A stretch of 64,000 nt of DNA from Elainellaceae cyanobacterium (GTDB lineage Bacteria; Cyanobacteriota; Cyanobacteriia; CAKZMO01): contig JBHJGR010000160.1 of the NCBI GenBank assembly GCA_050331615.1, positions 6,482-70,481 of the forward strand, in the 5' to 3' direction. The position numbers and the translations under genes are program-made. Below the pieces are notes generated by a model. It saw nothing but the letters and a program-made list of their open reading frames with translations. It was not told the DNA's origin and made no database searches. Shown here in pieces: positions 974 through 30,345 of this stretch (positions are counted from its first letter, which is position 1; each line of letters begins with the position of its first letter).

Positions 974-1783
974 CTAGCGACATTGGCGGGCATTGATTTC
1001 TTGATGGGCCTCTTGTCTCAGGGCTGCCAGCATGGCGGTTGACTTTGGCTCAAACCGCCCCAAAGCAGCGTAACTCAGGAGGCCAAAGTATTCCCGAAGT
1101 GACAGAAAAGCGACCTGTGCTGAGGGCAAATATCGGGGTAGGGAAACTGGATGGGGGATCACCTTTAGGCCAAGACTTTGAAACGTCAGCGTCGCTCGCA
1201 GCATGTGGGGGGCGTCCGTCACCAGCAGAACGCGCTTGGCATCGAGGGAGTGCAGCAGCAGCGAGGTAAACAGCGCCTCTTCATAGGTGGTCATGGCGCA
1301 GTTCACCTCTTGAACCACCTGGTCCAGATCGAGGTCGGGCGACGGTGCAGCCAAATCTTTCATGAGTCGCCGGGTCTCGGTAGCGGCATAGTGGCCGACG
1401 ATGAAAATTGTGGGGGCACGCTCCTGCTGCCAGAGATCGACTGCCTCCTGGTAGCGGGCATCCTCAGGGCGGCGGCTGAGCACCACAATGGCGTCGGCGG
1501 ACTGTCCTGAGTCACGGGGCACAAACCGCATCAGGTTGTTGACCGCCAGGGAAGCCATCAGGGGTGAGGTCACCACCAGGTAAAACGCCAGCAGAGCGAG
1601 GGCCGGTTTGCTGACCCACTGCTTGAGGGCGGGCGATCGCACCAGCCAGGGCACCACGATCACCATAAGCAGAGCCATCACCACGACTGAAGGCGCTGCC
1701 AGCCCATCAAAGATGCTCCAGTTCAGCCTGGTCCAGAGGCGCGTCGGCCAGAAACTCAGACCACATATCATCCATTTGATCAT
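974..1783 (-). CDS. DUF218/YdcF(ElyC)-like envelope-associated protein
   Basis: N-terminal TM segments and a C-terminal DUF218-like domain (IVVLSRRPED..IFIVGHYAA..VLLVTDAPHMLRA). Start set at an internal ATG, because the track ORF begins with a TTG inside repeat R2. Confidence 0.5.
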   Translation of the reverse strand: MIKWMICGLSFWPTRLWTRLNWSIFDGLAAPSVVVMALLMVIVVPWLVRSPALKQWVSKPALALLAFYLVVTSPLMASLAVNNLMRFVPRDSGQSADAIVVLSRRPEDARYQEAVDLWQQERAPTIFIVGHYAATETRRLMKDLAAPSPDLDLDQVVQEVNCAMTTYEEALFTSLLLHSLDAKRVLLVTDAPHMLRATLTFQSLGLKVIPHPVSLPRYLPSAQVAFLSLREYFGLLSYAALGRFEPKSTAMLAALRQEAHQEINARQCR

Positions 1784-1820
1784 ATGAATTGACCTCAAAA
1801 GATACGCTGACAGCAGCAGT

Positions 1821-1905
1821 AAGTGCTTGAGCAATTTCAGTTACATTTTTTTGGGTGCGTCCCTTGCGGGGGGCACATCCCAAGAAAGTAATTCCGTTTA
1901 ATACT
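1821..1905 (+). repeat. R2 hairpin repeat, copy 1 (AGTGCTTGAGCAATT..TACATTTT..GGGTGCG-hairpin-..AGAAAG)
   Basis: Aligns with the copies at 3034, 4498 and 32327. Lies between the divergent DUF218 gene and the UbiA gene. Confidence 0.75.
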
Positions 1906-2083
1906 TATTCCAGCTCAGTTATAGCAACTCCGCCGTTTAGACAAGCAGAATACAGAAAAATTATTCGTTTCTTAGAAATATGCCCGGTCTTACTTTGTAG
2001 AATCATCGCGATTACCCTCTACGCTCCTTTAGATATCGCTGGTATCCTTATGGGGATGGTTTTAAGTTCACTGGGGTGGTAGC

Positions 2084-3031
2084 GTGGCTGTTTCAGCTCA
2101 TCGGAAGTTTTCCCTCGCGTCTCATATCGCTGCGCTTCGTCCCCGTCAATGGACGAAGAACTTAGTCATTTTCGCCGCGCCAATTTTTGCGTTTAGCATC
2201 AATGCTGACTCGATGCTGGGCAGCGCTTTGGCATTCGTTCTATTTTGCTCGCTGTCAAGCAGCTTCTACCTGCTCAACGATGTTGCAGACGTGGAGTCCG
2301 ATCGGCAACATCCGGTCAAGTGCAATCGCCCGATCGCCTCGGGGATGGTCAAAGTGCCGACCGCGGTCGCGATGGCCATTGTGCTGATGGCAGGAGCCCT
2401 GACCATCGGCTGGATGCAGTCGTTTGATCTGGGTCGCGTCCTCTCGGCTTATGCCGTTCTACAAATCGCCTACAACCTGAAGCTTAAGCGGACGCCCATC
2501 CTCGATATCGTGGCGATCGCCACTGGGTTTGTTCTCCGCGCCTCTGCCGGGGCCGCTGCCACCAGCATTTCCCTCTCCCCCTGGTTCCTCCTGTGTACAG
2601 CGATGCTGGCCCTGTTCCTAGGCATCGAAAAGCGCAAGGCTGAGCTGCGGCTGCTCAAAATCAAAGGCGGCAAGACCCGCTCTGTGCTGAAGCGCTATTC
2701 CCTCTCCCTGCTCACCCGCATGGAGAGTACGGTCACCACGGGGGCCGTCATGAGCTATGCCCTTTGGAGTTCAGGCCCGCTAGTCAACGGAGCCACCACC
2801 CCCTGGATGCTGATAACCCTGCCATTTGTGCTGTACGGGATCTTTCGCTACCAGCTCTTGAGCGATCCCGAGGAGCTGGAGCGCCGGACAGAAGACAGCG
2901 AACCCGGTGGTCAAACCGAGCGTCCTGAGGAAGTATTGTTGCGCGATCGCCCAATCTTGCTAACCGTCCTGGGCTGGGTGTTGACGATTCTGGTGATTCT
3001 TTGGCTCCAAAAGCAGGGCATTATCCAGTAG
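2084..3031 (+). CDS. UbiA-family prenyltransferase, decaprenyl-phosphate 5-phosphoribosyltransferase (DPPR synthase, Rv3806c)-like
   Basis: Polytopic membrane protein. The motif NDVADVESDRQHPVKCNRPIASG closely resembles the Rv3806c-type NDxxDxExDRxHPxKxxRPIAxG signature. It is followed by DprE1-like and DprE2-like genes. GTG start. Confidence 0.7.
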   Translation: MAVSAHRKFSLASHIAALRPRQWTKNLVIFAAPIFAFSINADSMLGSALAFVLFCSLSSSFYLLNDVADVESDRQHPVKCNRPIASGMVKVPTAVAMAIVLMAGALTIGWMQSFDLGRVLSAYAVLQIAYNLKLKRTPILDIVAIATGFVLRASAGAAATSISLSPWFLLCTAMLALFLGIEKRKAELRLLKIKGGKTRSVLKRYSLSLLTRMESTVTTGAVMSYALWSSGPLVNGATTPWMLITLPFVLYGIFRYQLLSDPEELERRTEDSEPGGQTERPEEVLLRDRPILLTVLGWVLTILVILWLQKQGIIQ

Positions 3032-3033
3032 AT

Positions 3034-3110
3034 GAGTGCTTGAGCAATTCTAGCTACATTTTCTCAGGGGTGCGCCCCCCAGAAAGCAATTTGGTTTCAC
3101 TACTTCAATC
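3034..3110 (+). repeat. R2 hairpin repeat, copy 2
   Basis: Begins 3 nt after the UbiA stop codon and contains the hairpin GGGGTGCGCCCCCC. Confidence 0.75.
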
Positions 3111-3126
3111 AGAGGGAATCGGTCCT

Positions 3127-4497
3127 ATGTCACTTACCGTAGAACGCCCGATTACAGGTTGGGGAAGGTATCCGGTGGTCAAGAGTGCCCTGCATCGCCC
3201 CGAGAAGGTTGCTGCCCTCCGGCAGCTCTGCCAGCAGGACGCAGGTCATTCGTCCCTGGCTCGGGGAGCTGGGCGCAGCTATGGTGATGCCGCCCTCAAC
3301 GGCAGCGGTCAAACCATCCTCACTGAACGGCTCAACCGCATGCTGGCGTTCGATGCCCAAACCGGGCGGCTGCGCTGCGAGGCGGGCGTTGCCATCAAAG
3401 AGATTCTGGATGTATTCGTCCCCAAAGGCTGGTTTCCCTCGGTGACGCCGGGCACTAAGTTTGTCACCGTGGGTGGGGCGATCGCCTTCGATGTCCACGG
3501 CAAGAACCACCACCAGGACGGCTCCTTCTGCCGCCACGTGCATCGGTTCAATCTAATCCTCGCTTCGGGAGACGTGGTGACCTGCTCCCGCGACGAAAAC
3601 CCTGACCTGTTCTGGGCCACGGTAGGCGGGCTGGGGCTGACGGGCATCATTACCGATGTGGAATTCTCCCTCCAGCCCATCGAAACAGCCTACATCAACG
3701 GGCACAACATCAAGGCCCGCAACCTGGATGAGGCGATCGCCCTATTTGATGAGTATGAGCCTCAGTACCAATATTCTGTTGCCTGGATTGACTGTCTGGC
3801 TGCAGGAGCGTCCCTGGGGCGCAGCATCCTGATGCTGGGTAACCACGCCAAAGTTGAGGATCTGAGCCCAAATCAGCGCCCCTATCCGCTGGCGCTGAAG
3901 CCCAAGCAGCGCTTCCGCGTCACCTTTGACCCGCCCGCTGGCCTGCTGAATCGATATACGATGGGCGCGTTTAACACGCTCTACTACAGCCGCCAGCTTT
4001 CCTGCGAGGTGCGGGCGATCGCCGACTACGATTCCTTCTTCTACCCGCTGGACTTCATTTGGGACTGGAACCGCCTCTACGGCAAGCGGGGGTTTGTGCA
4101 GTATCAGTGCGTTTTTCCCCCAGAGACCAGCCGCACCGGGCTAATCGAGGTGCTAGAACAGTGCAGTCGCAAAGGCTGGGGCTCATTTCTGGCCGTTCTG
4201 AAGCGGTTTGGTCCCCAGGAGGGCCTGCTGTCCTTCCCCATGCCGGGGTTCACCCTAACGCTAGACATGCCCGTGAAGCCGGGGCTGTTCGAGTTCCTAG
4301 ACGGGCTAGACCACCTGGTAATTCGCCGGGGTGGTCGGGTTTATTTGGCAAAGGACGCCCGCCTTGGCCCTGACGCCTTCCGCGCCATGTATCCCAACTA
4401 CGCTGACTGGCTGGCCATCAAGTCGCGCGTCGATCCTGCCAATCAGTTCAAATCCACTCTGTCTGAACGGCTTCAGATTGAGCCAGCTCAGTGCTAA
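3127..4497 (+). CDS. FAD-dependent oxidoreductase, DprE1-like (decaprenylphosphoryl-beta-D-ribose 2'-oxidase family)
   Basis: FAD-binding PCMH-type N-terminus carrying GAGRSYGDAAL (compare the DprE1 motif G-RSYGD), and a C-terminal GGRVYLAKDARL (DprE1-like). Start moved to the ATG at 3127, preceded by GAGGGAA; the track ORF starts at 3001 inside the UbiA gene. Confidence 0.7.
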   Translation: MSLTVERPITGWGRYPVVKSALHRPEKVAALRQLCQQDAGHSSLARGAGRSYGDAALNGSGQTILTERLNRMLAFDAQTGRLRCEAGVAIKEILDVFVPKGWFPSVTPGTKFVTVGGAIAFDVHGKNHHQDGSFCRHVHRFNLILASGDVVTCSRDENPDLFWATVGGLGLTGIITDVEFSLQPIETAYINGHNIKARNLDEAIALFDEYEPQYQYSVAWIDCLAAGASLGRSILMLGNHAKVEDLSPNQRPYPLALKPKQRFRVTFDPPAGLLNRYTMGAFNTLYYSRQLSCEVRAIADYDSFFYPLDFIWDWNRLYGKRGFVQYQCVFPPETSRTGLIEVLEQCSRKGWGSFLAVLKRFGPQEGLLSFPMPGFTLTLDMPVKPGLFEFLDGLDHLVIRRGGRVYLAKDARLGPDAFRAMYPNYADWLAIKSRVDPANQFKSTLSERLQIEPAQC

Positions 4498-4580
4498 TGC
4501 ATTAAGTGCTAACGCATAATTCATCCATCCTATGGGGGTGTGCGCCCCCAAGCAAACAACTTCGGTTACCGACTTAGAGA
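4498..4580 (+). repeat. R2 hairpin repeat, copy 3 (diverged)
   Basis: Starts immediately after the DprE1-like stop codon and contains the hairpin GGGGGTGTGCGCCCCC. Confidence 0.65.
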
Positions 4581-4611
4581 CGTTCACGCAACCTCAAGCT
4601 ACGGGACGCAT

Positions 4612-5355
4612 ATGCGGGGAAAAACAGTTCTGATTATCGGCGCAACGTCTGCCATCGCGCGATCGCTCGCCCACCAGCTGGCGCGACGGGGTGCTGCCCT
4701 TCACCTGGCCGCCCGCGATCGGGTCGAAGTGGAGCGCATCGCCAGCGACATCGCGATTCGCTACGGCGTTCCCACCTCCTGGAGTGCCGTTGAGGCAACC
4801 CGCTACGATAGCCATCCTGATTTCTTTCAACAGGTGCTGGAGCGCACGGGGCGACTGGATGGAGTGGTAGTGTCCTTGGGGGAGCTGGGCGACCAGTCGA
4901 AAGCGCAAATTGATGTGAACCATGCCCAGCGCATCATCCACTCCAACTACACGGGAGTGGTGTCTATTTTGACGCCCATCGCTAACTATCTAGAGCAGCA
5001 GGGGCAGGGCTTTGTCATCGGCATTTCCTCAGTAGCGGGCGATCGCGGTCGGCCCAGCAACTACGTCTACGGTTCGGCGAAGGCCGCCCTGAGTGCGTTT
5101 CTCCAGGGGTTGCGTGGTCGGCTAGCCAAGGCGGGGGTGCACGTCCTCACGGTGAAGCCGGGATTTGTCGATACCAAAATGACCTTCGGCAAGTCCGGGA
5201 TGTTTTTGGTGGCTAGCCCCGATCAGGTCGCCGCCCAAATTCTGCGGGCGCTGGATCGGGGTCAGAACATTGCCTACGCTCCCTGGTTTTGGTTTGCCAT
5301 CATGGCCATTATCCGCGCCGTTCCTGAATTTATCTTTAAGCGACTTAACCTGTAA
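4612..5355 (+). CDS. Short-chain dehydrogenase/reductase, DprE2-like (decaprenylphosphoryl-2-keto-ribose reductase family)
   Basis: Rossmann motif GKTVLIIGATSAIARS, active-site region NYVYGSAKAAL, and about 247 aa, which is like DprE2. Start at ATG 4612. Confidence 0.65.
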   Translation: MRGKTVLIIGATSAIARSLAHQLARRGAALHLAARDRVEVERIASDIAIRYGVPTSWSAVEATRYDSHPDFFQQVLERTGRLDGVVVSLGELGDQSKAQIDVNHAQRIIHSNYTGVVSILTPIANYLEQQGQGFVIGISSVAGDRGRPSNYVYGSAKAALSAFLQGLRGRLAKAGVHVLTVKPGFVDTKMTFGKSGMFLVASPDQVAAQILRALDRGQNIAYAPWFWFAIMAIIRAVPEFIFKRLNL

Positions 5356-6983
5356 TGACTCCACCCCAGCCCGATTCAAGGCCCGTCGTGGCCCTCTTTG
5401 ACTTCGATGGCACCCTCACCCGAGGCGACTCCTTCCTGCCGTTTTTGCGAACGATGGGCGGGCCGTGGTACTACTGGTCGCGGATTTTGCTTCTAAGCCC
5501 CGTTCTCGGCGGCTATGCCCTGAAGGTTCTATCCAACTGGAAAACCAAAGAGGCCGTCCTAACCCGCTTTATTAAAGGGCGCACCGAAGCTGAGCTAGCG
5601 CAACTGGGCGATCGCTTTGCCCACGAGGTTATTCCTAGTCTGCTGCGACCTGAGGCAGTCGAACGGCTACGCTGGCACCAGCGGCAGGGGCACCGCACCA
5701 TTTTGGTCAGCGCCTCCATTGAGGCGTACCTGATTCCCTGGGCGCAGTCAATGGGTTTCGAGCAGGTGGTGAGCAGCCGCCTGGAGTGCCGCGACGGTAC
5801 CCTCACTGGGCGACTGGTAGGACGCAACTGCTATGGCGACGAGAAGGTGGCGCGGCTCCGTGAAGTGCTGGGCGACTTCGGCCAGTACCAGATTTATGCC
5901 TATGGGGATAGTCGGGGCGATCGCGAACTCCTCGCCATTGCCGATCATGCCTACTACCGCGAATTCCCGGTTGAAAGCGAAGATGAGACGCCAGGAAATA
6001 ATCCACCCGCCGGTACACCGCCCACTAGCGGCAACTGGGAGCGGGGGCTGATGCTCTCGGTGGCGGCAGCGGCGGCCCTCTACCTGGGGCTGGTGCTCTG
6101 GAGCGGGGCCGACCAAGTGTGGCAGGCGATTGACCTGCTGCCCGTCTGGCTCATTCCGGCCATGGCGGCGATCGTGTTTTTCGGCTACTGCCTCCGCTTC
6201 ATTCGCTGGCAGTGGTATTTGGCCGCAATGGGCTACTGGGTGCCCCTGAGGGACAGCTTTCGCATCTTTTTGGCCAGCTTTGCGCTGACGGCTTCTCCTG
6301 GGAAGGCAGGCGAGTCGGTGAAATCCCTGCTGCTGAAGCGGCGCTATGACATCCCCATTGCACCTACCTTGGCGGGACTGTTCTGCGAACGCTTCACCGA
6401 TGCCCTGTCGGTGGTGCTGCTGATTTGCCTCAGCTTTTTCTCTATGTTTCGGGCGTCATGGGCGATCGCCCTGGTGGGAGCCTTTCAGCTAGTCTTCATT
6501 CTGCTGCTCCAGCACCCCGCTTTCCTGAAGCAGCGGATTCTCAAACCCCTGGCCCGCTGGTCCAAGCTAGCAAATATTCTACAGAAGGTGGAAACCCTGA
6601 TCGATAGCGCCAGCCTTCTGCTGCGTCCCAAAATTCTGCTGGGCAGCACCGCCCTCGCCCTGATTGCCTGGGGACTGGAAGGAGTTGCCTTCTACATCAT
6701 TTTTCAAAACCTGGGGGCAACCAGCGTTGGCCTCTACCAGGCGGTGCTTACCCACACCGGTTCAGGTCTCCTGGGGGCGCTGTCCATGCTGCCGGGGGGC
6801 ATTGGCAGCGCTGAAGCCCTCACCGTCAGCCTGTCGATGATGTATGGCGCGAGCCAAATTGCGGCGGTTACCGGAACGTTTCTCATCCGCCTGCTGACCC
6901 TCTGGTTCGCGGTGGCAATCGGTATCGTGGCTATGCTGTCGCTGCAGCGATCGTCACGGCACCGGGTCGGTCGCCAGTCCTAG
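5355..6983 (+). CDS. Fusion protein: HAD-IB phosphatase domain plus LPG-synthase-TM (UPF0104, flippase-like) membrane domain
   Basis: N-terminus has the HAD motif I ALFDFDGTLTRGDSF and motif IV GDSRGDRELL. A Pro/Thr-rich linker follows, then about 7 TM helices with an LPG_synthase_TM-like signature (FLASFALTASPGKAGE). Its ATG overlaps the stop codon of the upstream SDR gene. Confidence 0.6.
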   Translation: MTPPQPDSRPVVALFDFDGTLTRGDSFLPFLRTMGGPWYYWSRILLLSPVLGGYALKVLSNWKTKEAVLTRFIKGRTEAELAQLGDRFAHEVIPSLLRPEAVERLRWHQRQGHRTILVSASIEAYLIPWAQSMGFEQVVSSRLECRDGTLTGRLVGRNCYGDEKVARLREVLGDFGQYQIYAYGDSRGDRELLAIADHAYYREFPVESEDETPGNNPPAGTPPTSGNWERGLMLSVAAAAALYLGLVLWSGADQVWQAIDLLPVWLIPAMAAIVFFGYCLRFIRWQWYLAAMGYWVPLRDSFRIFLASFALTASPGKAGESVKSLLLKRRYDIPIAPTLAGLFCERFTDALSVVLLICLSFFSMFRASWAIALVGAFQLVFILLLQHPAFLKQRILKPLARWSKLANILQKVETLIDSASLLLRPKILLGSTALALIAWGLEGVAFYIIFQNLGATSVGLYQAVLTHTGSGLLGALSMLPGGIGSAEALTVSLSMMYGASQIAAVTGTFLIRLLTLWFAVAIGIVAMLSLQRSSRHRVGRQS

Positions 6984-8408
6984 CTGAGCACTGAGGTCAG
7001 CGTCGTAGACCGCTAGCTCCCAGTTTTGCGCCGCCTGAACTTGGTCGATGGTCAGCCCGGCTACCCCTTGAAAATTAGCCCCAGACAGATCGGCATCGGT
7101 TAAGTCCGCCTCTGCTAGCTTGCTGCCGCTTAAATTCGCGCCAACCAGATTGGCTCCAGCCAGGTTGGCTTGCGTGAGGTCGGCGGTTGCTAAGGTCGCC
7201 TTCAGCAAATTAGCGCACCCTGAATCTGCTAGGGAGTCTTCCCCGTTGCTCGCCTGCGTTTCATCGGCAGCAATACAGGCGAGGTCGGCGCTTTGAAGGT
7301 TGCTGTTGGCTAAGTCAGCCCGCGATAGGTCCGTACCGGTTAAATCAGCGTTGATCAGATTGGTTTCAGTGAGATCAGCTCGACTGAGATTGGCTCGACT
7401 GAGGTTGGCATCAACAAGCTTCGCGCCCCTCAAGGAGGCCCGAGTCAAATTAGCGCCACTCAGGTCACTGCTGCTGAGGATGGCGCGATTGAGGATCGTC
7501 TGGCTTAAATCGGTGCAGAGCGGTGCGGAATCGACTACTTCGGCCAGACAACCCAACTGGGCGTTTGTCAGATCAGCCGCTTCCAGGGTGGCATCGGTAA
7601 AGCTCACCCCCTGGAGCCGGGCGTCCCGTAGTTTCGATTGCTGCAGTTGGGCTCCCTGCAGCTGGGCTCCCTGCAGGTCAGCGCTCCAGAGCCCTGTGTT
7701 CTGCAGCCGGGCGTATCGCAGTTCAGCAAACGGTAGCTCGACTTTCGGCAGATGGGCATTCTGCACGTCCAACCCCCGTAGGCTAATGCAGTTGGGCATA
7801 AACCCCCCCACAACCGGCATCCTGCGAAAATCGGCGTAGCGCCAGGTACGGGGATCGAGCCAAGCGGCGGTGGGGCGCTCTTCCTCGGCTTGAATGTCCC
7901 AATAGCTACACCCCTGGTTGAGGGTTTGCAGCGCCTGAATGCGTCCGGCGTTGTCCGTGCGTCCTTCGGCACCCGTGATGATTTGCCAAGCCTGGGTGTA
8001 GGTTTCCTGTTCACGGGTATCAGCCTGGAAGATGTAGACCAAAAGCCCCAGCACAATGGTAAACTCCCCCAGCAGACGCACTGTGCGTACCGCGAAGTGT
8101 TTGACGGCTTCAACCCCCTGGGCCGACCGCTGCTGGTAGGCTTCGAACATTTGCCGATACTCATCCGTATCGATTTCAGAGGCTTTGGCAAGCTGGATTA
8201 AGCAATAGTCCCGCTCTAGGGGATCTCCAATGGCGCGGAGCCGGACAAATTCCTGGCGCAGCTTCTCCAGCCCTGTAGCGGTGAGGTTATCGAGGGAAGA
8301 TGAGGGTTCCGGCGATCGCTCCACTCCTGCATCTTCTGCCGCTGCTCCGCCAAGGGCGGGTTGGGGCTGGATGGGTTGCTTGGGATCGGAACCCGATACA
8401 TGGTCCAT
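6954..8408 (-). CDS. Pentapeptide-repeat protein with a non-repeat N-terminal domain
   Basis: Long runs of A(D/N)LxG/A pentapeptides (ANLSRADLTETNLINADLTGTDL..). Convergent with the HAD-fusion gene, overlapping it by 30 nt. Confidence 0.6.
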   Translation of the reverse strand: MDHVSGSDPKQPIQPQPALGGAAAEDAGVERSPEPSSSLDNLTATGLEKLRQEFVRLRAIGDPLERDYCLIQLAKASEIDTDEYRQMFEAYQQRSAQGVEAVKHFAVRTVRLLGEFTIVLGLLVYIFQADTREQETYTQAWQIITGAEGRTDNAGRIQALQTLNQGCSYWDIQAEEERPTAAWLDPRTWRYADFRRMPVVGGFMPNCISLRGLDVQNAHLPKVELPFAELRYARLQNTGLWSADLQGAQLQGAQLQQSKLRDARLQGVSFTDATLEAADLTNAQLGCLAEVVDSAPLCTDLSQTILNRAILSSSDLSGANLTRASLRGAKLVDANLSRANLSRADLTETNLINADLTGTDLSRADLANSNLQSADLACIAADETQASNGEDSLADSGCANLLKATLATADLTQANLAGANLVGANLSGSKLAEADLTDADLSGANFQGVAGLTIDQVQAAQNWELAVYDADLSAQLGLATDPVP

Positions 8409-9529: not shown

Positions 9530-10417
9530 ATGTTTAACGGCAATCAAATTAAAACGGCGGCGCTGCTGGGTCTGCTAAGTGGCCTGATCGTGCTGGCGGG
9601 GTACTACCTGATGGGCAACGAGCAGGGGCTGTATTTGGGACTGGCGATCGCTACCGCCACCAGCTTTGGCTCCTGGTTTTTCTCAGATAAGGCGGCTCTG
9701 GCGGCTTACCAGGCCCAGCCCATCGAGCGGCATCAGGCTCCCGAGCTGTATGACCTGGTGAAGGAACTGAGCGATCGCGCCCAGATTCCCATGCCCAGGC
9801 TGTTTCTTGTCCCCACTCAGTCGCCCAATGCTTTTGCCACTGGGCGAGACCCGAACCACTCGGCGGTTGCCGTTACCCAGGGCATTGTGGAGCTGCTGTC
9901 CCGCGACGAACTAGCGGGGGTGCTGGCCCACGAACTCACCCACGTCCGCAACCGCGACACCCTCACCCAGGCGGTGGCCGGAACCCTAGCGGGTGCAATT
10001 ACGTTCCTGGGACGCATACTGAGCTTTGGGCTGATGTATGCCCCTGCCAATCGGGATAGCCGCCGGGGCAACAATCCGCTGGCTATCTTGTTTTTGATTG
10101 TTCTGGCTCCCATTTCGGCAGCGCTGATTCAAATGGCCATTTCCCGAACGCGGGAGTTTGCCGCCGATGAAGGGGCCGCCGACGTGACAGGCAATCCCCT
10201 GGCGCTCGCCAGTGCTCTAGAGCAGCTTGAAGAGCGGGGACGGGAAATCCCTATGAATGGCAATCCGGCGATGTCGCCTTTGCTGATCATTAATCCCCTT
10301 TCGGCAGAAGGCTTGCAAAGCCTGTTTCGCACCCACCCCCCCACAGAGGAGCGCATTCGCCGCCTCCAGCAACTGGCCCAGCAGAACCGCCAAAAATCCT
10401 TTGCCCTGACGCAGTAA
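9530..10417 (+). CDS. htpX: Membrane zinc metalloprotease HtpX (M48)
   Basis: HELTHVRNRD zinc motif, TM segments and typical length. Confidence 0.8.
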   Translation: MFNGNQIKTAALLGLLSGLIVLAGYYLMGNEQGLYLGLAIATATSFGSWFFSDKAALAAYQAQPIERHQAPELYDLVKELSDRAQIPMPRLFLVPTQSPNAFATGRDPNHSAVAVTQGIVELLSRDELAGVLAHELTHVRNRDTLTQAVAGTLAGAITFLGRILSFGLMYAPANRDSRRGNNPLAILFLIVLAPISAALIQMAISRTREFAADEGAADVTGNPLALASALEQLEERGREIPMNGNPAMSPLLIINPLSAEGLQSLFRTHPPTEERIRRLQQLAQQNRQKSFALTQ

Positions 10418-10465
10418 GGCGGTTTCAAAAAGCGGTCATCCCCTATCCCGTTAGTAGCGTCTGGT

Positions 10466-10543
10466 GTATCCGCAGATTTCGCAGATTTCGCAGATGGATG
10501 ACTTCCCTGCTCTTTATCTGCGTCCATCTGCGTCATCTGCGGA
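10466..10543 (+). repeat. R3 palindromic element (ATCCGCAGAT..GCAGAT..ATCTGCGTCATCTGCGGAT), copy 1
   Basis: Inverted halves built from CGCAGAT/ATCTGCG units. Related copies at 16089-16330 and 18723-18797. Confidence 0.7.
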
Positions 10544-10570
10544 TTGTTGTAGATTTCGAGACCTCTACCG

Positions 10571-11692
10571 ATGACAGACTGGATACATCTTATTTCTGAA
10601 TGGTCGGCTTCGATGAATCGCGTGTTTGATCAGGCTAAGCGTCAGGTTAAAACGGTGCTCGGTATCGAAGACCCGCTGCAAATTTTGCCCTATCGGGGTT
10701 ATGGCACGCGCGATCGCCTCTACTTCATGGGGCGGGTGCTGCGAGATGAAGGAATCAGGCCGGGCAGCCAGGATACGCCCATCTGGGAAAACGCTTTGAA
10801 TATGTTCCGCCGCTTTGAAAGCGATGAAGTTCCCGGTGCCCGACTGCGGCTCACCTTTGAAAACCAGCAGCAGGAACTGGTGACGGATCAAGAGGGATAC
10901 TTTCGGGCGGAGGTGTTTCCGAGTGAGTTGTCGGGCGATCGCCTCCGCTATCAGGCCCAGGTAGAGCTGCTGGACCCCCACCCCCGCAAGAAGGAGCAGG
11001 TCCGGGCAATGGCGGAGGCGATCGTGCCCCTGACCACGGCTCAGTTCGGCGTCATCAGCGACATTGATGACACGATTGTCCACAGTCGGGCCACCGATTT
11101 GCTGGAGATGCTCTGGATTGCCTATCTGGGCAATGCCCATACCCGCCTCCCGTTTCCAGGGGTCGCCAAGTTCTATAAAGCCCTCCAAGCGGGCAAAAGC
11201 GGCAACGACGGCAACCCGGTTTTCTACGTCTCCAGTAGTGCGCTGAATATGTATGACGTGTTTGAGGAGTTCATGGATCTGCATGATCTGCCCGCGGGTA
11301 CCCTGTTTCTTCGGGAGATGGAGCTATCCCTTGAAAACTGGCTGTCCTTCAGCCATGAGGGCCATAAGCGAGGAAAGATCGAGGCCATTCTGGAGTGCTA
11401 CTCAGAGTTGCCGTTTATTTTGATTGGGGACAGCGGCCAGGAGGATGCCGAAATCTATCGGCAACTGGTCCACGACTACCCGCACCGGGTTAAGTGCATC
11501 TATATCCGTAACGTCAGTCAAGAGAAACCACGGCGTCAGAAAGAGCTGGAGGCGATCGCCCAGGATGTTCAGTCCCTCGGCAGCCCTTTTGTCATCGTGC
11601 CCGATACCTTCACCGCCGCTCAACATGCCGCCAATCAGGGGTGGATTGCCCCCGACACGCTCTTTGAAATACAGCAGAGCGATCGCTGGTAG
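10571..11692 (+). CDS. App1-family (DUF2183) phosphatase-like protein
   Basis: GVISDIDDTIVHS motif typical of the App1 phosphatidate phosphatase catalytic domain. Confidence 0.55.
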   Translation: MTDWIHLISEWSASMNRVFDQAKRQVKTVLGIEDPLQILPYRGYGTRDRLYFMGRVLRDEGIRPGSQDTPIWENALNMFRRFESDEVPGARLRLTFENQQQELVTDQEGYFRAEVFPSELSGDRLRYQAQVELLDPHPRKKEQVRAMAEAIVPLTTAQFGVISDIDDTIVHSRATDLLEMLWIAYLGNAHTRLPFPGVAKFYKALQAGKSGNDGNPVFYVSSSALNMYDVFEEFMDLHDLPAGTLFLREMELSLENWLSFSHEGHKRGKIEAILECYSELPFILIGDSGQEDAEIYRQLVHDYPHRVKCIYIRNVSQEKPRRQKELEAIAQDVQSLGSPFVIVPDTFTAAQHAANQGWIAPDTLFEIQQSDRW

Positions 11693-28651: not shown

Positions 28652-28971
28652 GGTGTCAGGACGCTCTCCCAGGCTAATAAAACAGCAGTGACCAGAACCA
28701 AGATTTCGATTGTAGCTAAGGGTGGGGAAGGTACGGCCATCGCCGATTTAAGCAGGACAGAAGGTCGTCCGGCTTTGCATTAGCCGTTTCGATGTCCTAA
28801 AAATCTGCGCGATCGCGACTAACCCAGCACCATCATGCGGCAAAACTGAGAGTAGATCCAGCAAATCGCGATTTTTTAGCCGCAGCGGACCCTCGCTTGA
28901 GTTCTGGCTTGGCGTGGCTTCGTCCCATCGGCATCAATCCATCGGCATCAACCCACCTGCATCGACCCACT

Positions 28972-30345
28972 ATGAGTCCTATGTCATCCCACTGTTCCCT
29001 CCGCCAGGAAATTGCTGAATGCCTCCACCTCTCCCTACCTCTGGCAGGAGCACAGTTGGCCTTTGCGGCCACGGGATTCGTCGATACGGTGATGATGGGT
29101 GGCTTAGGCAGCGATTATTTGGCAGCGGGTGGCCTGGGGGCGACCACGTTCACCTCCCTGCTGGTGGTGGGCACGGGGGTGGTGTCAGCCGTCAGTCCCT
29201 TCATCGCGGAGGCATACGGTGCCCAGCAGGCTGACCGCGCCGGACGGATGATGGACCAGGGCATCTGGCTGGCGATCGCCGTGGCGCTGCCGATCACGAT
29301 CCTGTTGGGGAATGCCGCCCCGGTGCTGCGGCTCCTGGGCCAGGAGGAGACGGTGGTGCGACTGGCGGCCCAATACCTGCGGGCGATCGCCTGGGGCTAT
29401 CTGCCGGGGCTGCTGTTTGTGGTGCTGCGGAGCTTTGTTACTGCCCTGTCCCAGCCCCGGCCAGTGATTCTGATCATGGGGTTGGGCGTTGGTCTTAACG
29501 CGATCGCCAACTATATTTTGATGTACGGCAAGCTGGGACTACCGGCTCTGGGGCTGGTAGGCATCGGCTGGTCGAGCACCCTGGTGTACTGGAGCATGGG
29601 TTTTGCCCTGGTGGTTTATGTGATGCGTCAGCCCCAGTATGCGGTCTATCGTCCGTTTCGGACTGTTCATCGCTTCCAGGGGCGGCTGTTTGGGGAGCTG
29701 ATAGCGGTGGGTCTACCCATTGGGATTCTGGCTACCTTTGAAACGGGGATGTTCAGCGTGGTGACGTTCATGGCAGGGCACCTGGGCACGACGGCCCTGG
29801 CTGCCCATCAAATTGCCCTGCAAACCATCGTCATTACTTTTATGGTGCCTTTGGGTATCTCTCAGGCCATGACGGTACGCGTCGGGCAGCTCGTTGGCCG
29901 ACAGCAGGAAAGTCAGGCTCGCCGAGCGGGATACGTAGGGCTGGCGCTGGGCTTAGCCTTCATGGGAAGCATGGCCACCGTAATGCTGGTCGCGCCCCAG
30001 CTCATTGTGGCCCTCTATCTGGACATAACCCTACCCGATAACCAGGATGTGGTGCGAGGGGCGATCGCTCTACTGGCCGTGGGCGGTATCTTTCAGCTAT
30101 TTGACGGGGCTCAGGTCGTTTCTGCCGGAGCCCTAAGGGGCCTAAAGGATACCCGCATCCCCATGGTGGTTGGCGTGGTGGCCTACTGGATCGTGGGGTT
30201 GCCCAGCGGCTACCTGGGCGGATTTGTGCTGGGTCTGGGGGGCGTGGGGCTGTGGTGCGGCCTGGCGATTGGGTTGGCGATCGCTGCCATTACCCTCACT
30301 TGGCGGTTCCACCGACTCCTGGCACCCAGGTTAGACGGGTATTAA
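28972..30345 (+). CDS. MATE-family efflux transporter (NorM/DinF-like)
   Basis: Twelve TM helices in two internal 6-TM repeats, with typical MATE motifs. Start at ATG 28972. Confidence 0.75.
   Translation: MSPMSSHCSLRQEIAECLHLSLPLAGAQLAFAATGFVDTVMMGGLGSDYLAAGGLGATTFTSLLVVGTGVVSAVSPFIAEAYGAQQADRAGRMMDQGIWLAIAVALPITILLGNAAPVLRLLGQEETVVRLAAQYLRAIAWGYLPGLLFVVLRSFVTALSQPRPVILIMGLGVGLNAIANYILMYGKLGLPALGLVGIGWSSTLVYWSMGFALVVYVMRQPQYAVYRPFRTVHRFQGRLFGELIAVGLPIGILATFETGMFSVVTFMAGHLGTTALAAHQIALQTIVITFMVPLGISQAMTVRVGQLVGRQQESQARRAGYVGLALGLAFMGSMATVMLVAPQLIVALYLDITLPDNQDVVRGAIALLAVGGIFQLFDGAQVVSAGALRGLKDTRIPMVVGVVAYWIVGLPSGYLGGFVLGLGGVGLWCGLAIGLAIAAITLTWRFHRLLAPRLDGY

What the first reader, a model, noticed from the sequence alone, without database searches (positions are those of the whole stretch)
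5355..6983. HAD phosphatase fused to an LPG-synthase-TM / flippase-like domain at the end of the DPA-like cluster
The mycobacterial pathway needs a phosphatase (Rv3807c, PAP2 type) to remove the 5-phosphate from DPPR. Here a HAD-IB phosphatase domain (DFDGTLT motif) occupies the matching position and is covalently joined to a UPF0104 / LPG_synthase_TM-type polytopic domain, a family associated with lipid flipping. This could couple dephosphorylation with translocation of a lipid-linked sugar. It is a non-orthologous replacement and an unusual domain fusion. Translational coupling (ATG overlapping the upstream stop codon) ties it to the DprE2-like gene.
Basis: inference. Interest (0 to 1): 0.6.

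Follow-up and report, generated by a model that had tools for sequence, protein, structure and literature searches.

The report
Sugar-lipid phosphatase fused to MprF-like flippase
A cyanobacterial gene joins a HAD phosphatase to an MprF-type lipid-translocator domain at the end of an operon that makes a lipid-linked arabinofuranose-like sugar donor; the phosphatase role has a published precedent, but the translocator domain is a new, widely conserved candidate for the still-disputed flippase of this pathway.

Summary
ORF 5355-6983 (+) encodes one 542-aa protein with an N-terminal HAD-IB phosphatase domain (all catalytic motifs intact), a disordered linker and a C-terminal LPG_synthase_TM/UPF0104 ("PplT", MprF-like) domain. 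Its ATG overlaps the stop of the DprE2-like gene (TAATG). It closes a UbiA-DprE1-DprE2 operon.

The fusion is not an artefact. Full-length orthologues occur in many cyanobacteria and in Salinibacter.

In 80 related loci the same parts form a conserved module. The commonest order, in 25 loci, is DprE1|DprE2|HAD|UbiA|PplT as separate genes. UbiA and PplT are adjacent in 27 loci. The window's gene is the fused form of two module members.

The HAD is most likely the polyprenyl-phospho-5-phosphoribose 5-phosphatase. This replacement of Rv3807c was already shown experimentally for a HAD fused to UbiA in Citrobacter (Kelly et al. 2024), so it is not new.

I found no paper that reports the MprF-type domain in the flippase slot. 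It is inferred to translocate the lipid-linked pentofuranose. Strict coupling of dephosphorylation to flipping is unproven. The HAD also fuses to UbiA and GT-C partners, which suggests membrane tethering. No GT-C lies in the window.

Verdict: new variant of a known kind; moderate interest.

The parts
2084..3031 (+). UbiA-family polyprenyl-phosphate 5-phosphoribosyltransferase (DPPR-synthase-like; first step of the pathway)
   Evidence: Pfam UbiA E 1.3e-25. NCBIfam NF008978 decaprenyl-phosphate phosphoribosyltransferase, 266 bits, above the cut-off of 207.
3127..4497 (+). DprE1-like FAD oxidase. The ORF opens at TTG 3001; the probable start is ATG 3127, which matches the orthologue length of 455 aa.
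   Evidence: NF053785 DprE1 model, 472 bits (cut-off 500). FAD_binding_4. 91% identical orthologue P0267 of 455 aa with 100% query coverage.
4612..5355 (+). DprE2-like short-chain dehydrogenase. The ORF opens at GTG 4540; the probable start is ATG 4612, giving 247 aa as in orthologues.
   Evidence: adh_short E 5e-35. NF005489, 314 bits (cut-off 267); DprE2 model NF053786, 188 bits (cut-off 250). Orthologous genes of 247 aa in L086 and L088.
5353..5357 (+). TAATG stop/start overlap between the SDR gene and the fusion gene
   Evidence: Read directly from the sequence. The same one-base overlap occurs in syntenic locus L088: SDR ends at 10001 and the fusion starts at 10001.
5355..5966 (+). HAD-IB phosphatase domain (aa 1-204). 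Catalytic residues D16, D18, T20 (motif I), S121 (motif II), K164 (motif III) and D189 (motif IV). Hydrophobic cap segment at aa 27-59.
   Evidence: PF12710 and TIGR01490. These residues are invariant in 63 orthologues. Foldseek matches 3fvv (E 2e-10) and SerB structures. Cap hydropathy is 1.3-1.7, against -0.67 in soluble 3fvv.
5967..6032 (+). Variable Pro/Glu/Thr-rich linker (aa 205-226), predicted disordered
   Evidence: pLDDT below 50 at 209-225. Length and sequence vary, but all orthologues stay in frame.
6033..6983 (+). PplT / LPG_synthase_TM / UPF0104 polytopic domain (aa 227-542, stop included). Conserved intramembrane polar motifs: R281/R284/W285, TASPGKAGE (E320), CERFTD (E345, D349), WxxEG (E442), LPGGIGxxE (E487) and R512.
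   Evidence: PF03706 E 1.3e-40 and TIGR00374. Foldseek matches the MprF structures 7duw_A (E 2.3e-5, 334 columns) and 9j8s_A. The K/R distribution supports N-in/C-in topology.
974..1834 (-). Divergently transcribed DUF218 (ElyC/SanA-like) membrane protein. Its link to the cluster is uncertain.
   Evidence: PF02698 E 2.6e-17. It has the same position in syntenic L088 but is not found next to the module in other loci.

Best explanation
The four genes at 2084-6983 form one operon that builds a polyprenyl-phosphate-linked D-arabinofuranose-type donor from PRPP. UbiA transfers ribose-5-phosphate to polyprenyl phosphate. The cytoplasmic HAD-IB domain of the last gene removes the 5-phosphate; this is the Rv3807c step, done here by an unrelated fold. 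DprE1-like and DprE2-like enzymes then epimerise C2. The C-terminal MprF-type PplT domain moves the lipid-linked pentofuranose, and possibly its ribose precursor, to the outer leaflet. An unlinked GT-C glycosyltransferase would use it there. The HAD reaches its membrane-bound substrate through a hydrophobic cap and through tethering to the PplT domain. The fusion keeps the phosphatase in the membrane-bound pathway complex and raises the local concentration of substrate for a probably promiscuous scramblase. Shown: domain identities, intact catalytic and family motifs, N-in topology by the positive-inside rule, a real and conserved fusion, and a conserved gene module. Inferred: substrate identity, translocase activity, direction of transport, and the acceptor glycan.
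For: Domains and folds are established. The HAD catalytic residues and nine charged or polar intramembrane PplT residues are invariant in 63 orthologues. The module is conserved across phyla. The order DprE1|DprE2|HAD|UbiA|PplT occurs in 25 loci. Adjacency within 60 bp is seen for DprE2-HAD in 43 loci, UbiA-PplT in 27 and UbiA-HAD::PplT in 6. In Salinibacter the fusion sits beside DprE1, DprE2 and UbiA inside a polysaccharide cluster. In Calothrix it does too. Locus L089 reads UbiA|PplT|GT-C(PMT_2)::HAD without DprE1/E2. That is a minimal ribofuranose-type system in which PplT is the only candidate left for the flippase role. Several modules that lack PplT carry a GtrA or an SMR/ArnE-like gene instead. 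No such gene lies in the window. There is a published precedent for the HAD step: the HAD PRP domain of Citrobacter ORF15 dephosphorylates polyprenyl-P-ribose-5-P (PMC11127046). There is published transport activity for the homologous MprF domain, together with the 'fused enzyme gives local concentration' model (PMC11980842). UPF0104 fused to the archaeal Dol-P-sugar synthase AglD was predicted to be a flippase (PMC5898192). The K/R distribution places the HAD in the cytoplasm, where PRPP-derived substrates are made. DprE1 homologues share at least 12 contigs with the fusion.
Against: There is no biochemical evidence for any member of this PplT subfamily. Four loci carry both PplT and a GtrA or SMR gene (L006, L061, L038, L055). 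The anti-correlation between PplT and these small genes is weak (Fisher p = 0.058). The HAD product (polyprenyl-P-ribose) is not the expected flipped species if DprE1/E2 act in the cytoplasm, so the fusion does not join consecutive steps. The same HAD is fused to UbiA, GT-C, an acyltransferase and DUF6080 in other organisms, so fusion in itself says little about the partner's function. No GT-C and no acceptor pathway lie within the 64-kb window. In some cyanobacteria the fusion gene sits alone. The related loci were retrieved with HAD and PplT sequence patterns, which biases the sample. Direct sequence comparison with the characterised Citrobacter PRP was not possible.
Confidence: 0.6

Rival explanations
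1. The PplT domain is only a membrane anchor or scaffold. It tethers the HAD phosphatase to the membrane-bound pathway complex and moves no lipid. Flipping is done by an unlinked protein such as GtrA, ArnE/F-like, DedA or the GT-C itself.
For: The HAD of this subfamily is fused to many different membrane partners: UbiA in P0097, GT87 in P0093, PMT_2 in P0111, Acyl_transf_3 in P0114 and DUF6080 in P0113. A GtrA or SMR gene lies directly upstream of the fusion in L061 and L006. GtrA-like proteins of the pathway have themselves been proposed to act as hubs rather than flippases (10.1101/2020.04.19.049825).
Against: Where the HAD is a separate gene, a stand-alone PplT is still kept, tightly adjacent to UbiA in 27 loci. 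An anchor for the HAD would not be needed there. The stand-alone HADs carry their own hydrophobic cap. Nine charged or polar intramembrane residues, including the family signature PGGxGxxE, are invariant, which is unexpected for a passive anchor. Homologous MprF domains transport lipids.
Confidence: 0.17
2. The PplT domain works in the opposite direction. It returns free polyprenyl phosphate, released by the periplasmic GT-C, to the cytoplasmic leaflet for reuse by UbiA. This is carrier-lipid recycling of the kind DedA and DUF368 proteins perform.
For: The tightest linkage of PplT is to UbiA, the enzyme that consumes polyprenyl phosphate (27 adjacencies; L089). MprF-type domains behave as bidirectional, promiscuous scramblases (PMC11980842). 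The co-occurrence of PplT with GtrA or SMR in four loci would be explained if the two proteins move different species.
Against: Most modules with PplT contain no other candidate exporter for the sugar-lipid (38 of 40). A bidirectional scramblase would serve both directions anyway, so this rival overlaps with the main explanation rather than excluding it.
Confidence: 0.12
3. The fusion acts on glycerophospholipids and only happens to lie next to the DPA-like genes. In this reading it is a PgpC-like phosphatidylglycerophosphate phosphatase joined to a phospholipid translocator, like YbhN/PplT of E. coli.
For: There is a weak match to TIGR01545 phosphatidylglycerophosphatase C (E 2e-6), and JGI names one relative that way (P0100). 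E. coli PplT/YbhN is linked to PG and cardiolipin enzymes (10.1101/2022.03.11.483950). In some cyanobacteria the fusion gene is unlinked to the pathway genes.
Against: The TIGR01545 score is 27.7 bits against a cut-off of 259. Linkage to DprE1/DprE2/UbiA is conserved across cyanobacteria, Rhodothermota, Proteobacteria, Zixibacteria and others. The same HAD is fused to the PRPP-dependent UbiA and to GT-C enzymes.
Confidence: 0.05
4. The fusion is an artefact: two genes joined by an assembly error or a frameshift.
For: Adjacent split HAD and PplT genes exist in Methylomonas (L009, L010) and in a Chlamydiae MAG (L008).
Against: More than 75 independent full-length fused proteins were found on separate contigs and from separate sources. 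The linker is in frame in all of them although its sequence varies. About 17 clusters at 50% identity are fused. A syntenic orthologue is 87% identical. The Methylomonas split genes nest inside the fused clade, which points to secondary fission.
Confidence: 0.01

Closest known systems
Citrobacter youngae O1/O2 three-component pentofuranose side-chain system: ORF15 (PRP::PPPRS), ORF14 (ArnE/F-like flippase), ORF12 (GT-C, GT136). Kelly et al., PNAS 2024, PMC11127046.
   Same: It has a UbiA-type polyprenyl-phosphate phosphoribosyltransferase and a HAD-family phosphatase that removes the 5-phosphate. Auxiliary epimerases diversify the pentose; DprE1/E2 homologues are noted there for Araf systems. 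The donor is flipped and used by a GT-C.
   Different: In Citrobacter the HAD is fused to the synthase; here it is fused to the putative translocator. The flippase slot is filled there by a small ArnE/F-like protein and here by an MprF-type 8-helix PplT domain. No GT-C lies within the 64-kb window. The acceptor glycan in the cyanobacterium is unknown.
Mycobacterial DPA pathway: Rv3806c UbiA, Rv3807c PAP2 phosphatase, DprE1, DprE2, Rv3789 GtrA-like
   Same: The chemical logic is the same, and UbiA, DprE1 and DprE2 are homologous.
   Different: The phosphatase is HAD-IB rather than PAP2. The candidate translocator is MprF-like rather than GtrA-like. The carrier lipid is probably undecaprenyl rather than decaprenyl; this was not tested.
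MprF (bifunctional aminoacyl-phosphatidylglycerol synthase/flippase; structures 7DUW, 9J8S)
   Same: The TM domain is homologous (PF03706; Foldseek E 2.3e-5). The architectural principle is the same: a cytoplasmic lipid-headgroup-modifying enzyme fused to the translocator domain.
   Different: The enzyme is at the N-terminus and is a HAD phosphatase, not a C-terminal DUF2156 aminoacyl transferase. The presumed substrate is a polyprenyl-phosphate sugar, not a glycerophospholipid. The MprF equivalog model is not matched by the window protein.
Archaeal AglD (GT2 dolichyl-phosphate-hexose synthase fused to a UPF0104 domain) and stand-alone UPF0104 proteins (GpgF, YbhN/PplT)
   Same: A UPF0104 domain is joined or adjacent to an enzyme that makes a lipid-linked sugar. 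It is predicted, but not demonstrated, to flip the product (PMC5898192, PMC12713373).
   Different: The partner enzymes and lipid headgroups differ. AglD carries the enzyme that creates the sugar-lipid bond, whereas here the partner is a trimming phosphatase.
Pseudomonas (para)aeruginosa PA7/Pa5196 D-Araf pilin glycosylation cluster PsPA7_6245-6251, and the rhizobial noeC/H/O/P Nod-factor arabinosylation genes
   Same: These are non-actinobacterial DPA-like clusters with UbiA, DprE1 and DprE2 homologues.
   Different: Those clusters carry a GtrA-family protein (and a PAP2-type 6245 in Pseudomonas), not a PplT domain. The rhizobial NoeP-position gene is a 401-aa protein without Pfam matches, not a PplT.

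Membership tests
HAD superfamily, subfamily IB (TIGR01490 / PF12710) | Profile match above the curated cut-off | tested here: met
   PF12710, 132.7 bits against 27. TIGR01490, 163.2 bits against 98.3. TIGR01488, 112.4 bits against 45.
HAD superfamily, subfamily IB (TIGR01490 / PF12710) | Four catalytic motifs: DxDxT, S/T, K and an acidic motif IV | tested here: met
   D16, D18, T20, S121, K164 and D189 are invariant in 63 orthologues.
HAD superfamily, subfamily IB (TIGR01490 / PF12710) | Rossmann-like core with a helical C1 cap | tested here: met
   The AF2 model has pLDDT above 90 over the domain. Foldseek matches 3fvv (E 2e-10, TM-target 0.72-0.75) and SerB structures.
Phosphoribose phosphatase (PRP) HAD domains of PRPP-dependent ribofuranosylation (Kelly et al.) | Genetic or physical linkage to a PRPP-dependent phosphoribosyltransferase | tested here: met
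   The gene shares an operon with a UbiA PPPRS. Relatives of this HAD (46% identity) are fused to UbiA in P0097, which matches NF006088 across part of the HAD plus UbiA. HAD-UbiA adjacency occurs in 23 loci.
Phosphoribose phosphatase (PRP) HAD domains of PRPP-dependent ribofuranosylation (Kelly et al.) | Sequence relatedness to an experimentally characterised PRP (e.g. Citrobacter ORF15 N-terminal domain) | not tested
The only evidence is the indirect link through the HAD::UbiA architecture.
Phosphoribose phosphatase (PRP) HAD domains of PRPP-dependent ribofuranosylation (Kelly et al.) | 5-phosphatase activity on the transferred ribose-5-phosphate | not testable with these tools
   This needs an enzyme assay.
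LPG_synthase_TM / UPF0104 / PplT (PF03706, TIGR00374, COG0392) | Profile match above the curated cut-off | tested here: met
   PF03706, 140.1 bits against 33.4, covering profile positions 2-302 of 302. TIGR00374, 67.4 bits against 43.2.
LPG_synthase_TM / UPF0104 / PplT (PF03706, TIGR00374, COG0392) | Fold like the MprF transport domain | tested here: met
   Foldseek matches 7duw_A (E 2.3e-5, 334 columns) and 9j8s_A (E 5e-4). Plain sequence search against PDB chains finds no MprF, so the relationship is distant.
LPG_synthase_TM / UPF0104 / PplT (PF03706, TIGR00374, COG0392) | Lipid translocation activity | not testable with these tools
   Activity is shown only for MprF proteins in the literature.
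MprF (bifunctional flippase/aminoacyl-PG synthase, NF033480) | C-terminal aminoacyl-PG synthase domain and an equivalog-level score | tested here: not met
   No such domain exists; the protein ends after the TM domain. NF033480 is not matched by the window protein. A related stand-alone PplT scores 34 bits against a cut-off of 600.
Rv3807c-type PAP2 phosphatase | PAP2 domain | tested here: not met
   No PAP2 match was found in the fusion or in any cluster gene. The relationship is functional analogy only.
PgpC (phosphatidylglycerophosphatase C, TIGR01545) | Equivalog score | tested here: not met
   27.7 bits against a cut-off of 259.
Three-component extracytoplasmic pentofuranosylation system (synthase + flippase + GT-C) | UbiA-type polyprenyl-phosphate phosphoribosyltransferase | tested here: met
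   NF008978 above its cut-off.
Three-component extracytoplasmic pentofuranosylation system (synthase + flippase + GT-C) | ArnE/F-like (or GtrA-like) small flippase | tested here: not met
   HMMs built from the GtrA and SMR genes of related loci find nothing in the 64-kb window. The PplT domain is the only candidate.
Three-component extracytoplasmic pentofuranosylation system (synthase + flippase + GT-C) | Dedicated GT-C glycosyltransferase | tested here: not met
   None was found in the window. It may be encoded elsewhere in the genome. Related loci do carry GT-C-clan or unassigned polytopic neighbours: DUF2079 with E 7e-83 in L012, PMT_2 in L073 and L089.

The most novel reading that the evidence does not exclude
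MprF-type PplT/UPF0104 domains may be a previously unrecognised, phylogenetically widespread class of translocators for polyprenyl-phosphate pentofuranoses (ribose, arabinose and perhaps a 2-amino pentose). They would fill the 'DPA flippase' role that is still disputed for GtrA-like proteins. Their fusion to the 5-phosphatase may indicate that the ribose form leaves the cytoplasmic leaflet as soon as it is dephosphorylated, which bears on the debate over where DprE1/DprE2 act.
Probability: 0.4. Interest if true: 0.7.

Novelty: new variant of a known kind. Interest (0 to 1): 0.55.

Why it matters
The protein that moves decaprenyl- or undecaprenyl-phosphate arabinofuranose across the membrane is still uncertain. 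Rv3789 and other GtrA-like proteins may be hubs rather than flippases, and no flippase was identified for Pseudomonas pilin arabinosylation.

This study found an MprF-like domain tightly and repeatedly linked to the UbiA synthase in dozens of lineages, and fused to the pathway phosphatase in cyanobacteria and Salinibacter. That gives a concrete candidate that can be tested by complementation.

The result also extends the idea that MprF-type scramblase domains are general modules whose substrate is set by the attached enzyme, from glycerophospholipids to polyprenyl-linked sugars.

Finally, it shows that many cyanobacteria, including marine picocyanobacteria, probably make D-arabinofuranose-type surface glycans that have not been characterised.

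Tried and rejected
1. NoeP hypothesis. I asked whether rhizobial NoeP, the last gene of the noe arabinosylation operon and required for arabinosylation, is a PplT. If it were, PplT might be the transferase. A tblastn search of the PplT domain against plasmids found no rhizobial hit. The Sinorhizobium nod-linked cluster reads UbiA-GtrA-DprE1-SDR-401-aa hypothetical, and that last protein has no Pfam match. The idea was rejected.

2. Strict mutual exclusion of PplT and GtrA/SMR flippase-like genes. There is only a weak trend (Fisher p = 0.058), and four loci have both.

3. GT-C partner in the window. None was found by a hydropathy screen, by Pfam, or by tblastn with seven polytopic neighbours from related loci. 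The MatE gene at 28897-30345 is 22 kb away and ordinary.

4. Promoter and terminator scan of 1700-7300. It gave no more than chance.

5. Direct sequence match of the PplT domain to MprF chains in the PDB. None was found; only profile and fold comparisons detect the relationship.

7. Pfam assignment of the large polytopic genes inserted between HAD and UbiA in Gallionella-type loci. There were mostly no hits, or sub-threshold hits to DUF2079 and DUF2142. Their GT-C nature is not established.

8. Inter-domain geometry. Model coordinates could not be inspected, so the position of the HAD active site relative to the membrane domain was not assessed.


Full report
**1. What is in the sequence**

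ORF 5355-6983 on the + strand is one uninterrupted frame of 542 codons.
- Pfam finds HAD (PF12710) at aa 13-193, E 2.7e-38.
- Pfam finds LPG_synthase_TM (PF03706) at aa 237-523, E 1.3e-40, covering the whole profile.
- NCBIfam places the N-terminal part in HAD-IB (TIGR01490, 163 bits against a cut-off of 98).
- NCBIfam places the C-terminal part in the 'flippase-like domain' family (TIGR00374, 67 bits against 43).
- The ATG at 5355-5357 shares its A with the TAA stop (5353-5355) of the upstream gene.

Upstream on the same strand lie three pathway genes:

| Gene | Coordinates | Best model | Score against cut-off |
|---|---|---|---|
| UbiA-family enzyme | 2084-3031 | NF008978, decaprenyl-phosphate phosphoribosyltransferase | 266 against 207 |
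| DprE1-like FAD oxidase | probable start 3127, end 4497 | NF053785 | 472 against 500 |
| DprE2-like SDR | probable start 4612, end 5355 | NF005489 (PRK07102) | 314 against 267 |
| (same SDR) | | NF053786, DprE2 | 188 against 250 |

**2. The fusion is real**

- A database search returned more than 75 full-length proteins of 505-564 aa with both domains. Identity is 52-87% in cyanobacteria (Calothrix, Rivularia, Pleurocapsales, Trichothermofontia, Spirulina, Leptolyngbya). It is 45-50% in Salinibacter ruber and many metagenome contigs.
- In alignments of 16 and of 63 orthologues the linker (aa 205-226) varies in length and sequence but always stays in frame.
- A Synechococcales MAG (L088) with an 87% identical protein is syntenic with the window on both sides, including the one-base stop/start overlap.
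- An exhaustive HMMER scan of 1.84 billion cluster representatives gave 904 relatives at E <= 1e-30. Among the best 150, about 17 representatives are full-length fusions. The rest are stand-alone HADs of about 200 aa or stand-alone PplT proteins of about 320 aa.
- The fusion is therefore genuine and old, but it is the minority architecture.

**3. Anatomy**

- The HAD catalytic set is invariant in all 63 orthologues: D16, D18, T20; S121; K164; D189.
- The AlphaFold2 model is confident (mean pLDDT 87.7, pTM 0.69). The only disordered stretch inside the chain, apart from the two termini, is the linker at 209-225.
- Foldseek against the PDB matches the N-terminal domain to HAD-IB structures (3fvv, E 2e-10; SerB). 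It matches the helical bundle to MprF (7duw_A, E 2.3e-5 over 334 columns; 9j8s_A).
- Lys/Arg cluster at 281-284, 315-331, 387-424 and the C-terminus. The loops at 250-265, 361-367 and 453-459 have almost none. This gives an N-in/C-in topology with the HAD domain in the cytoplasm.
- The PplT domain keeps invariant polar residues inside the membrane: R281, R284, E320, E345, D349, E442, E487, R512, and the PGGxGxxE signature.
- The first cap helices of the HAD (aa 27-59) are hydrophobic. This holds for 13 fused and 69 stand-alone relatives (maximum 19-residue Kyte-Doolittle mean 1.68 and 1.47). The equivalent segment of soluble 3fvv scores -0.67. By inference, this suggests a phosphatase that dips into the membrane surface to reach a lipid-linked substrate.

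**4. Context elsewhere**

I fetched 80 loci from a one-genome-per-species collection and annotated them with the window's own proteins as queries.
- The commonest arrangement, in 25 loci, is DprE1|DprE2|HAD|UbiA|PplT as five separate genes. These loci are mostly Gallionella, Nitrosomonadales, Accumulibacter and other Proteobacteria, plus one Zixibacteria MAG.

| Adjacent pair (within 60 bp) | Loci |
|---|---|
| DprE1-DprE2 | 45 |
| DprE2-HAD | 43 |
| UbiA-PplT | 27 |
| HAD-UbiA | 23 |
| UbiA-HAD::PplT | 6 |

- Fused forms occur in cyanobacteria, Salinibacter (L001, inside a polysaccharide cluster), a Myxococcales MAG, and picocyanobacteria. The picocyanobacterial order is UbiA|HAD::PplT|DprE2|DprE1.
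- In a neighbour-joining tree of PplT domains the fused proteins form two clades. The adjacent split genes of Methylomonas nest inside one of them, which points to secondary fission. The proteobacterial stand-alone proteins form a separate clade.
- The same HAD subfamily is fused to other membrane proteins of this kind of pathway: UbiA (P0097), GT87 (P0093), PMT_2 (P0111), an acyltransferase (P0114) and DUF6080 (P0113).
- The most telling locus is L089: UbiA | PplT | PMT_2(GT-C)::HAD, with no DprE1/E2. It holds a synthase, a phosphatase, a GT-C and one further conserved membrane protein. The only function left unassigned is translocation.
- Several modules without PplT carry a GtrA gene (L069, L074, L077, L078) or an SMR/ArnE-like gene (L017, L019) next to UbiA or HAD. 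These are the families proposed as flippases in the known systems.
- The exclusion is not strict. L006, L061, L038 and L055 have both, and the trend is weak (Fisher p = 0.058).
- The window itself has no GtrA- or SMR-like gene and no second copy of any module gene.

**5. What is already known**

- Kelly et al. (PNAS 2024, PMC11127046) showed that Citrobacter youngae ORF15 is a HAD 'phosphoribose phosphatase' fused to a UbiA-type polyprenyl-phosphate phosphoribosyltransferase. The D18A mutant accumulates farnesyl-P-ribose-5-P. They state that Rv3807c is an unrelated phosphatase and that DprE1/E2 homologues accompany Araf-type systems.
- The flippase in their system is a small ArnE/F-like protein.
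- A HAD in place of the PAP2 phosphatase is therefore a published solution.
- The role of GtrA-like proteins (Rv3789, PsPA7_6247) as the DPA flippase is disputed, and no flippase was identified for Pseudomonas pilin arabinosylation.
- UPF0104 domains have been predicted to be flippases because of MprF and because they form the C-terminus of archaeal AglD.
- A preprint lists 'dehalogenase-like hydrolase + PplT' among rare architectures, without any functional comment.
- P. aeruginosa MprF is a promiscuous scramblase. Its authors argue that substrate preference comes from the fused enzyme through local concentration.
- In the searchable library no paper mentions both DprE1 and MprF. I found no description of a PplT-type component in a DPA-like or pentofuranose module.

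**6. Most likely mechanism**

The proposed steps are:
1. UbiA makes polyprenyl-P-ribose-5-P on the cytoplasmic face.
2. The tethered, membrane-dipping HAD removes the 5-phosphate.
3. DprE1-like and DprE2-like enzymes invert C2. Neither has a signal peptide, and the reductase needs a nicotinamide cofactor, so both probably work in the cytoplasm.
4. The PplT domain equilibrates the lipid-linked pentofuranose across the bilayer for an unlinked GT-C.

My confidence is high for the phosphatase assignment (about 0.8) and moderate for the translocase assignment (about 0.55). Strict coupling of dephosphorylation to flipping is the least secure part, for two reasons. The two activities are not consecutive steps. 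The HAD is also found fused to the synthase and to GT-Cs, which suggests that the selective advantage is assembly of a membrane-bound pathway complex.

**7. Rivals**

- PplT as a mere anchor. This is weakened because a stand-alone PplT is retained next to UbiA where the HAD is a separate gene, and because of the invariant intramembrane polar residues.
- PplT as a recycler of free polyprenyl phosphate. This is compatible with a bidirectional scramblase and explains the tight UbiA linkage. It cannot be excluded.
- A glycerophospholipid role (PgpC-like). This is contradicted by the score (27.7 bits against 259) and by the conserved context.
- Artefact. This is excluded.

**8. Co-occurrence in cyanobacteria**

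- DprE1 homologues at 56-91% identity are common in cyanobacteria.
One is the 544-kb contig of L087, where the fusion is more than 10 kb from DprE1.
- In Trichothermofontia the fusion gene is not clustered.

**9. Verdict**

The 'non-orthologous phosphatase' element is already known. The new element is the MprF-type domain as a conserved member of the lipid-linked pentofuranose module, fused to the phosphatase in this lineage. This is a new variant of a known kind, of moderate interest. It offers a directly testable candidate for a flippase whose identity has been debated for years.

Noticed in passing
L007 6067-11605 (Sphaerothrix gracilis); L010 5625-11565 and L009 (Methylomonas MAGs): These variant modules lack the DprE2 reductase. 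They carry a class-III aminotransferase (PF00202, E 1e-71 to 1e-79) between UbiA and DprE1. The 2-keto intermediate made by DprE1 may be transaminated to give a polyprenyl-phosphate 2-amino-2-deoxy-pentofuranose donor, a sugar-lipid I know of no report for.
   Followed up: partly
L089 5933-10238 (JGI metagenome contig): This is a minimal system: UbiA | stand-alone PplT | PMT_2-type GT-C fused to a C-terminal HAD, with no DprE1/E2. It is probably a ribofuranose-type three-component system with PplT in the flippase position.
   Followed up: partly
L012, L013, L014, L020, L042 (Prochlorococcus / Cyanobium): Marine and freshwater picocyanobacteria carry UbiA|HAD::PplT|DprE2|DprE1. Some also have a second stand-alone PplT directly after the fusion (L042 11506-12474, PF03706 E 5e-36). 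L012 has a DUF2079 GT-C-clan protein next door (4854-6251, minus strand, E 7e-83). This implies uncharacterised arabinofuranose-type surface glycans in these abundant organisms.
   Followed up: partly
window 974-1834 (-): A DUF218 (ElyC/SanA-like) membrane protein is transcribed divergently from the cluster and is in the same position in syntenic L088. ElyC-type proteins are linked to envelope and carrier-lipid homeostasis. No association was seen in other loci.
   Followed up: partly
window 5433-5531 (aa 27-59 of the fusion) and all related HADs: The first cap helices of this HAD subfamily are hydrophobic (19-residue hydropathy up to 1.2-2.4), unlike soluble HAD-IB 3fvv (-0.67). They may be a membrane-dipping element for lipid-linked substrates.
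   Followed up: partly
L026 3589-7285, L033, L044, L046, L049 (Gallionella-type loci): One to three large polytopic proteins (531-640 aa, some with a C-terminal TPR) are inserted between HAD and UbiA. The 636-aa type has 14 paralogues across the loci. Pfam gives no hits or only sub-threshold hits (DUF2079). They are probably novel GT-C-like transferases.
   Followed up: partly
L004 8752-9885; L086 8868-9947 (Calothrix): In some filamentous cyanobacteria a 359-377-aa protein (eight TM segments scored in L004) with no Pfam match sits between DprE2 and the fusion gene. It is absent from the window.
   Followed up: no
window 6954-6983: The 3' ends of the fusion gene and of the convergent pentapeptide-repeat gene (6954-8408, minus strand) overlap by 30 bp. 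The same neighbour is present in L088.
   Followed up: no
L083 6416-11256 (Sinorhizobium alkalisoli symbiosis plasmid): A nod-linked arabinosylation cluster reads UbiA (387 aa) - GtrA - DprE1 - SDR - 401-aa hypothetical protein without any Pfam match. The last gene is in the NoeP position, and NoeP is reported as required for Nod-factor arabinosylation. Its fold and function remain open.
   Followed up: partly
window 9530-11692: An M48 peptidase (9530-10417) and an APP1-type phosphatidate phosphatase (10571-11692) lie downstream in conserved synteny with L088. No link to the cluster is apparent.
   Followed up: no
H7, NZ_CP083583.1 855-2210 (Kovacikia minuta 1.2-Mb 'plasmid'): A 66% identical DprE1 homologue lies at the very start of a megaplasmid record of a cyanobacterium. 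The record has no annotation and was not inspected for the rest of the module.
   Followed up: no
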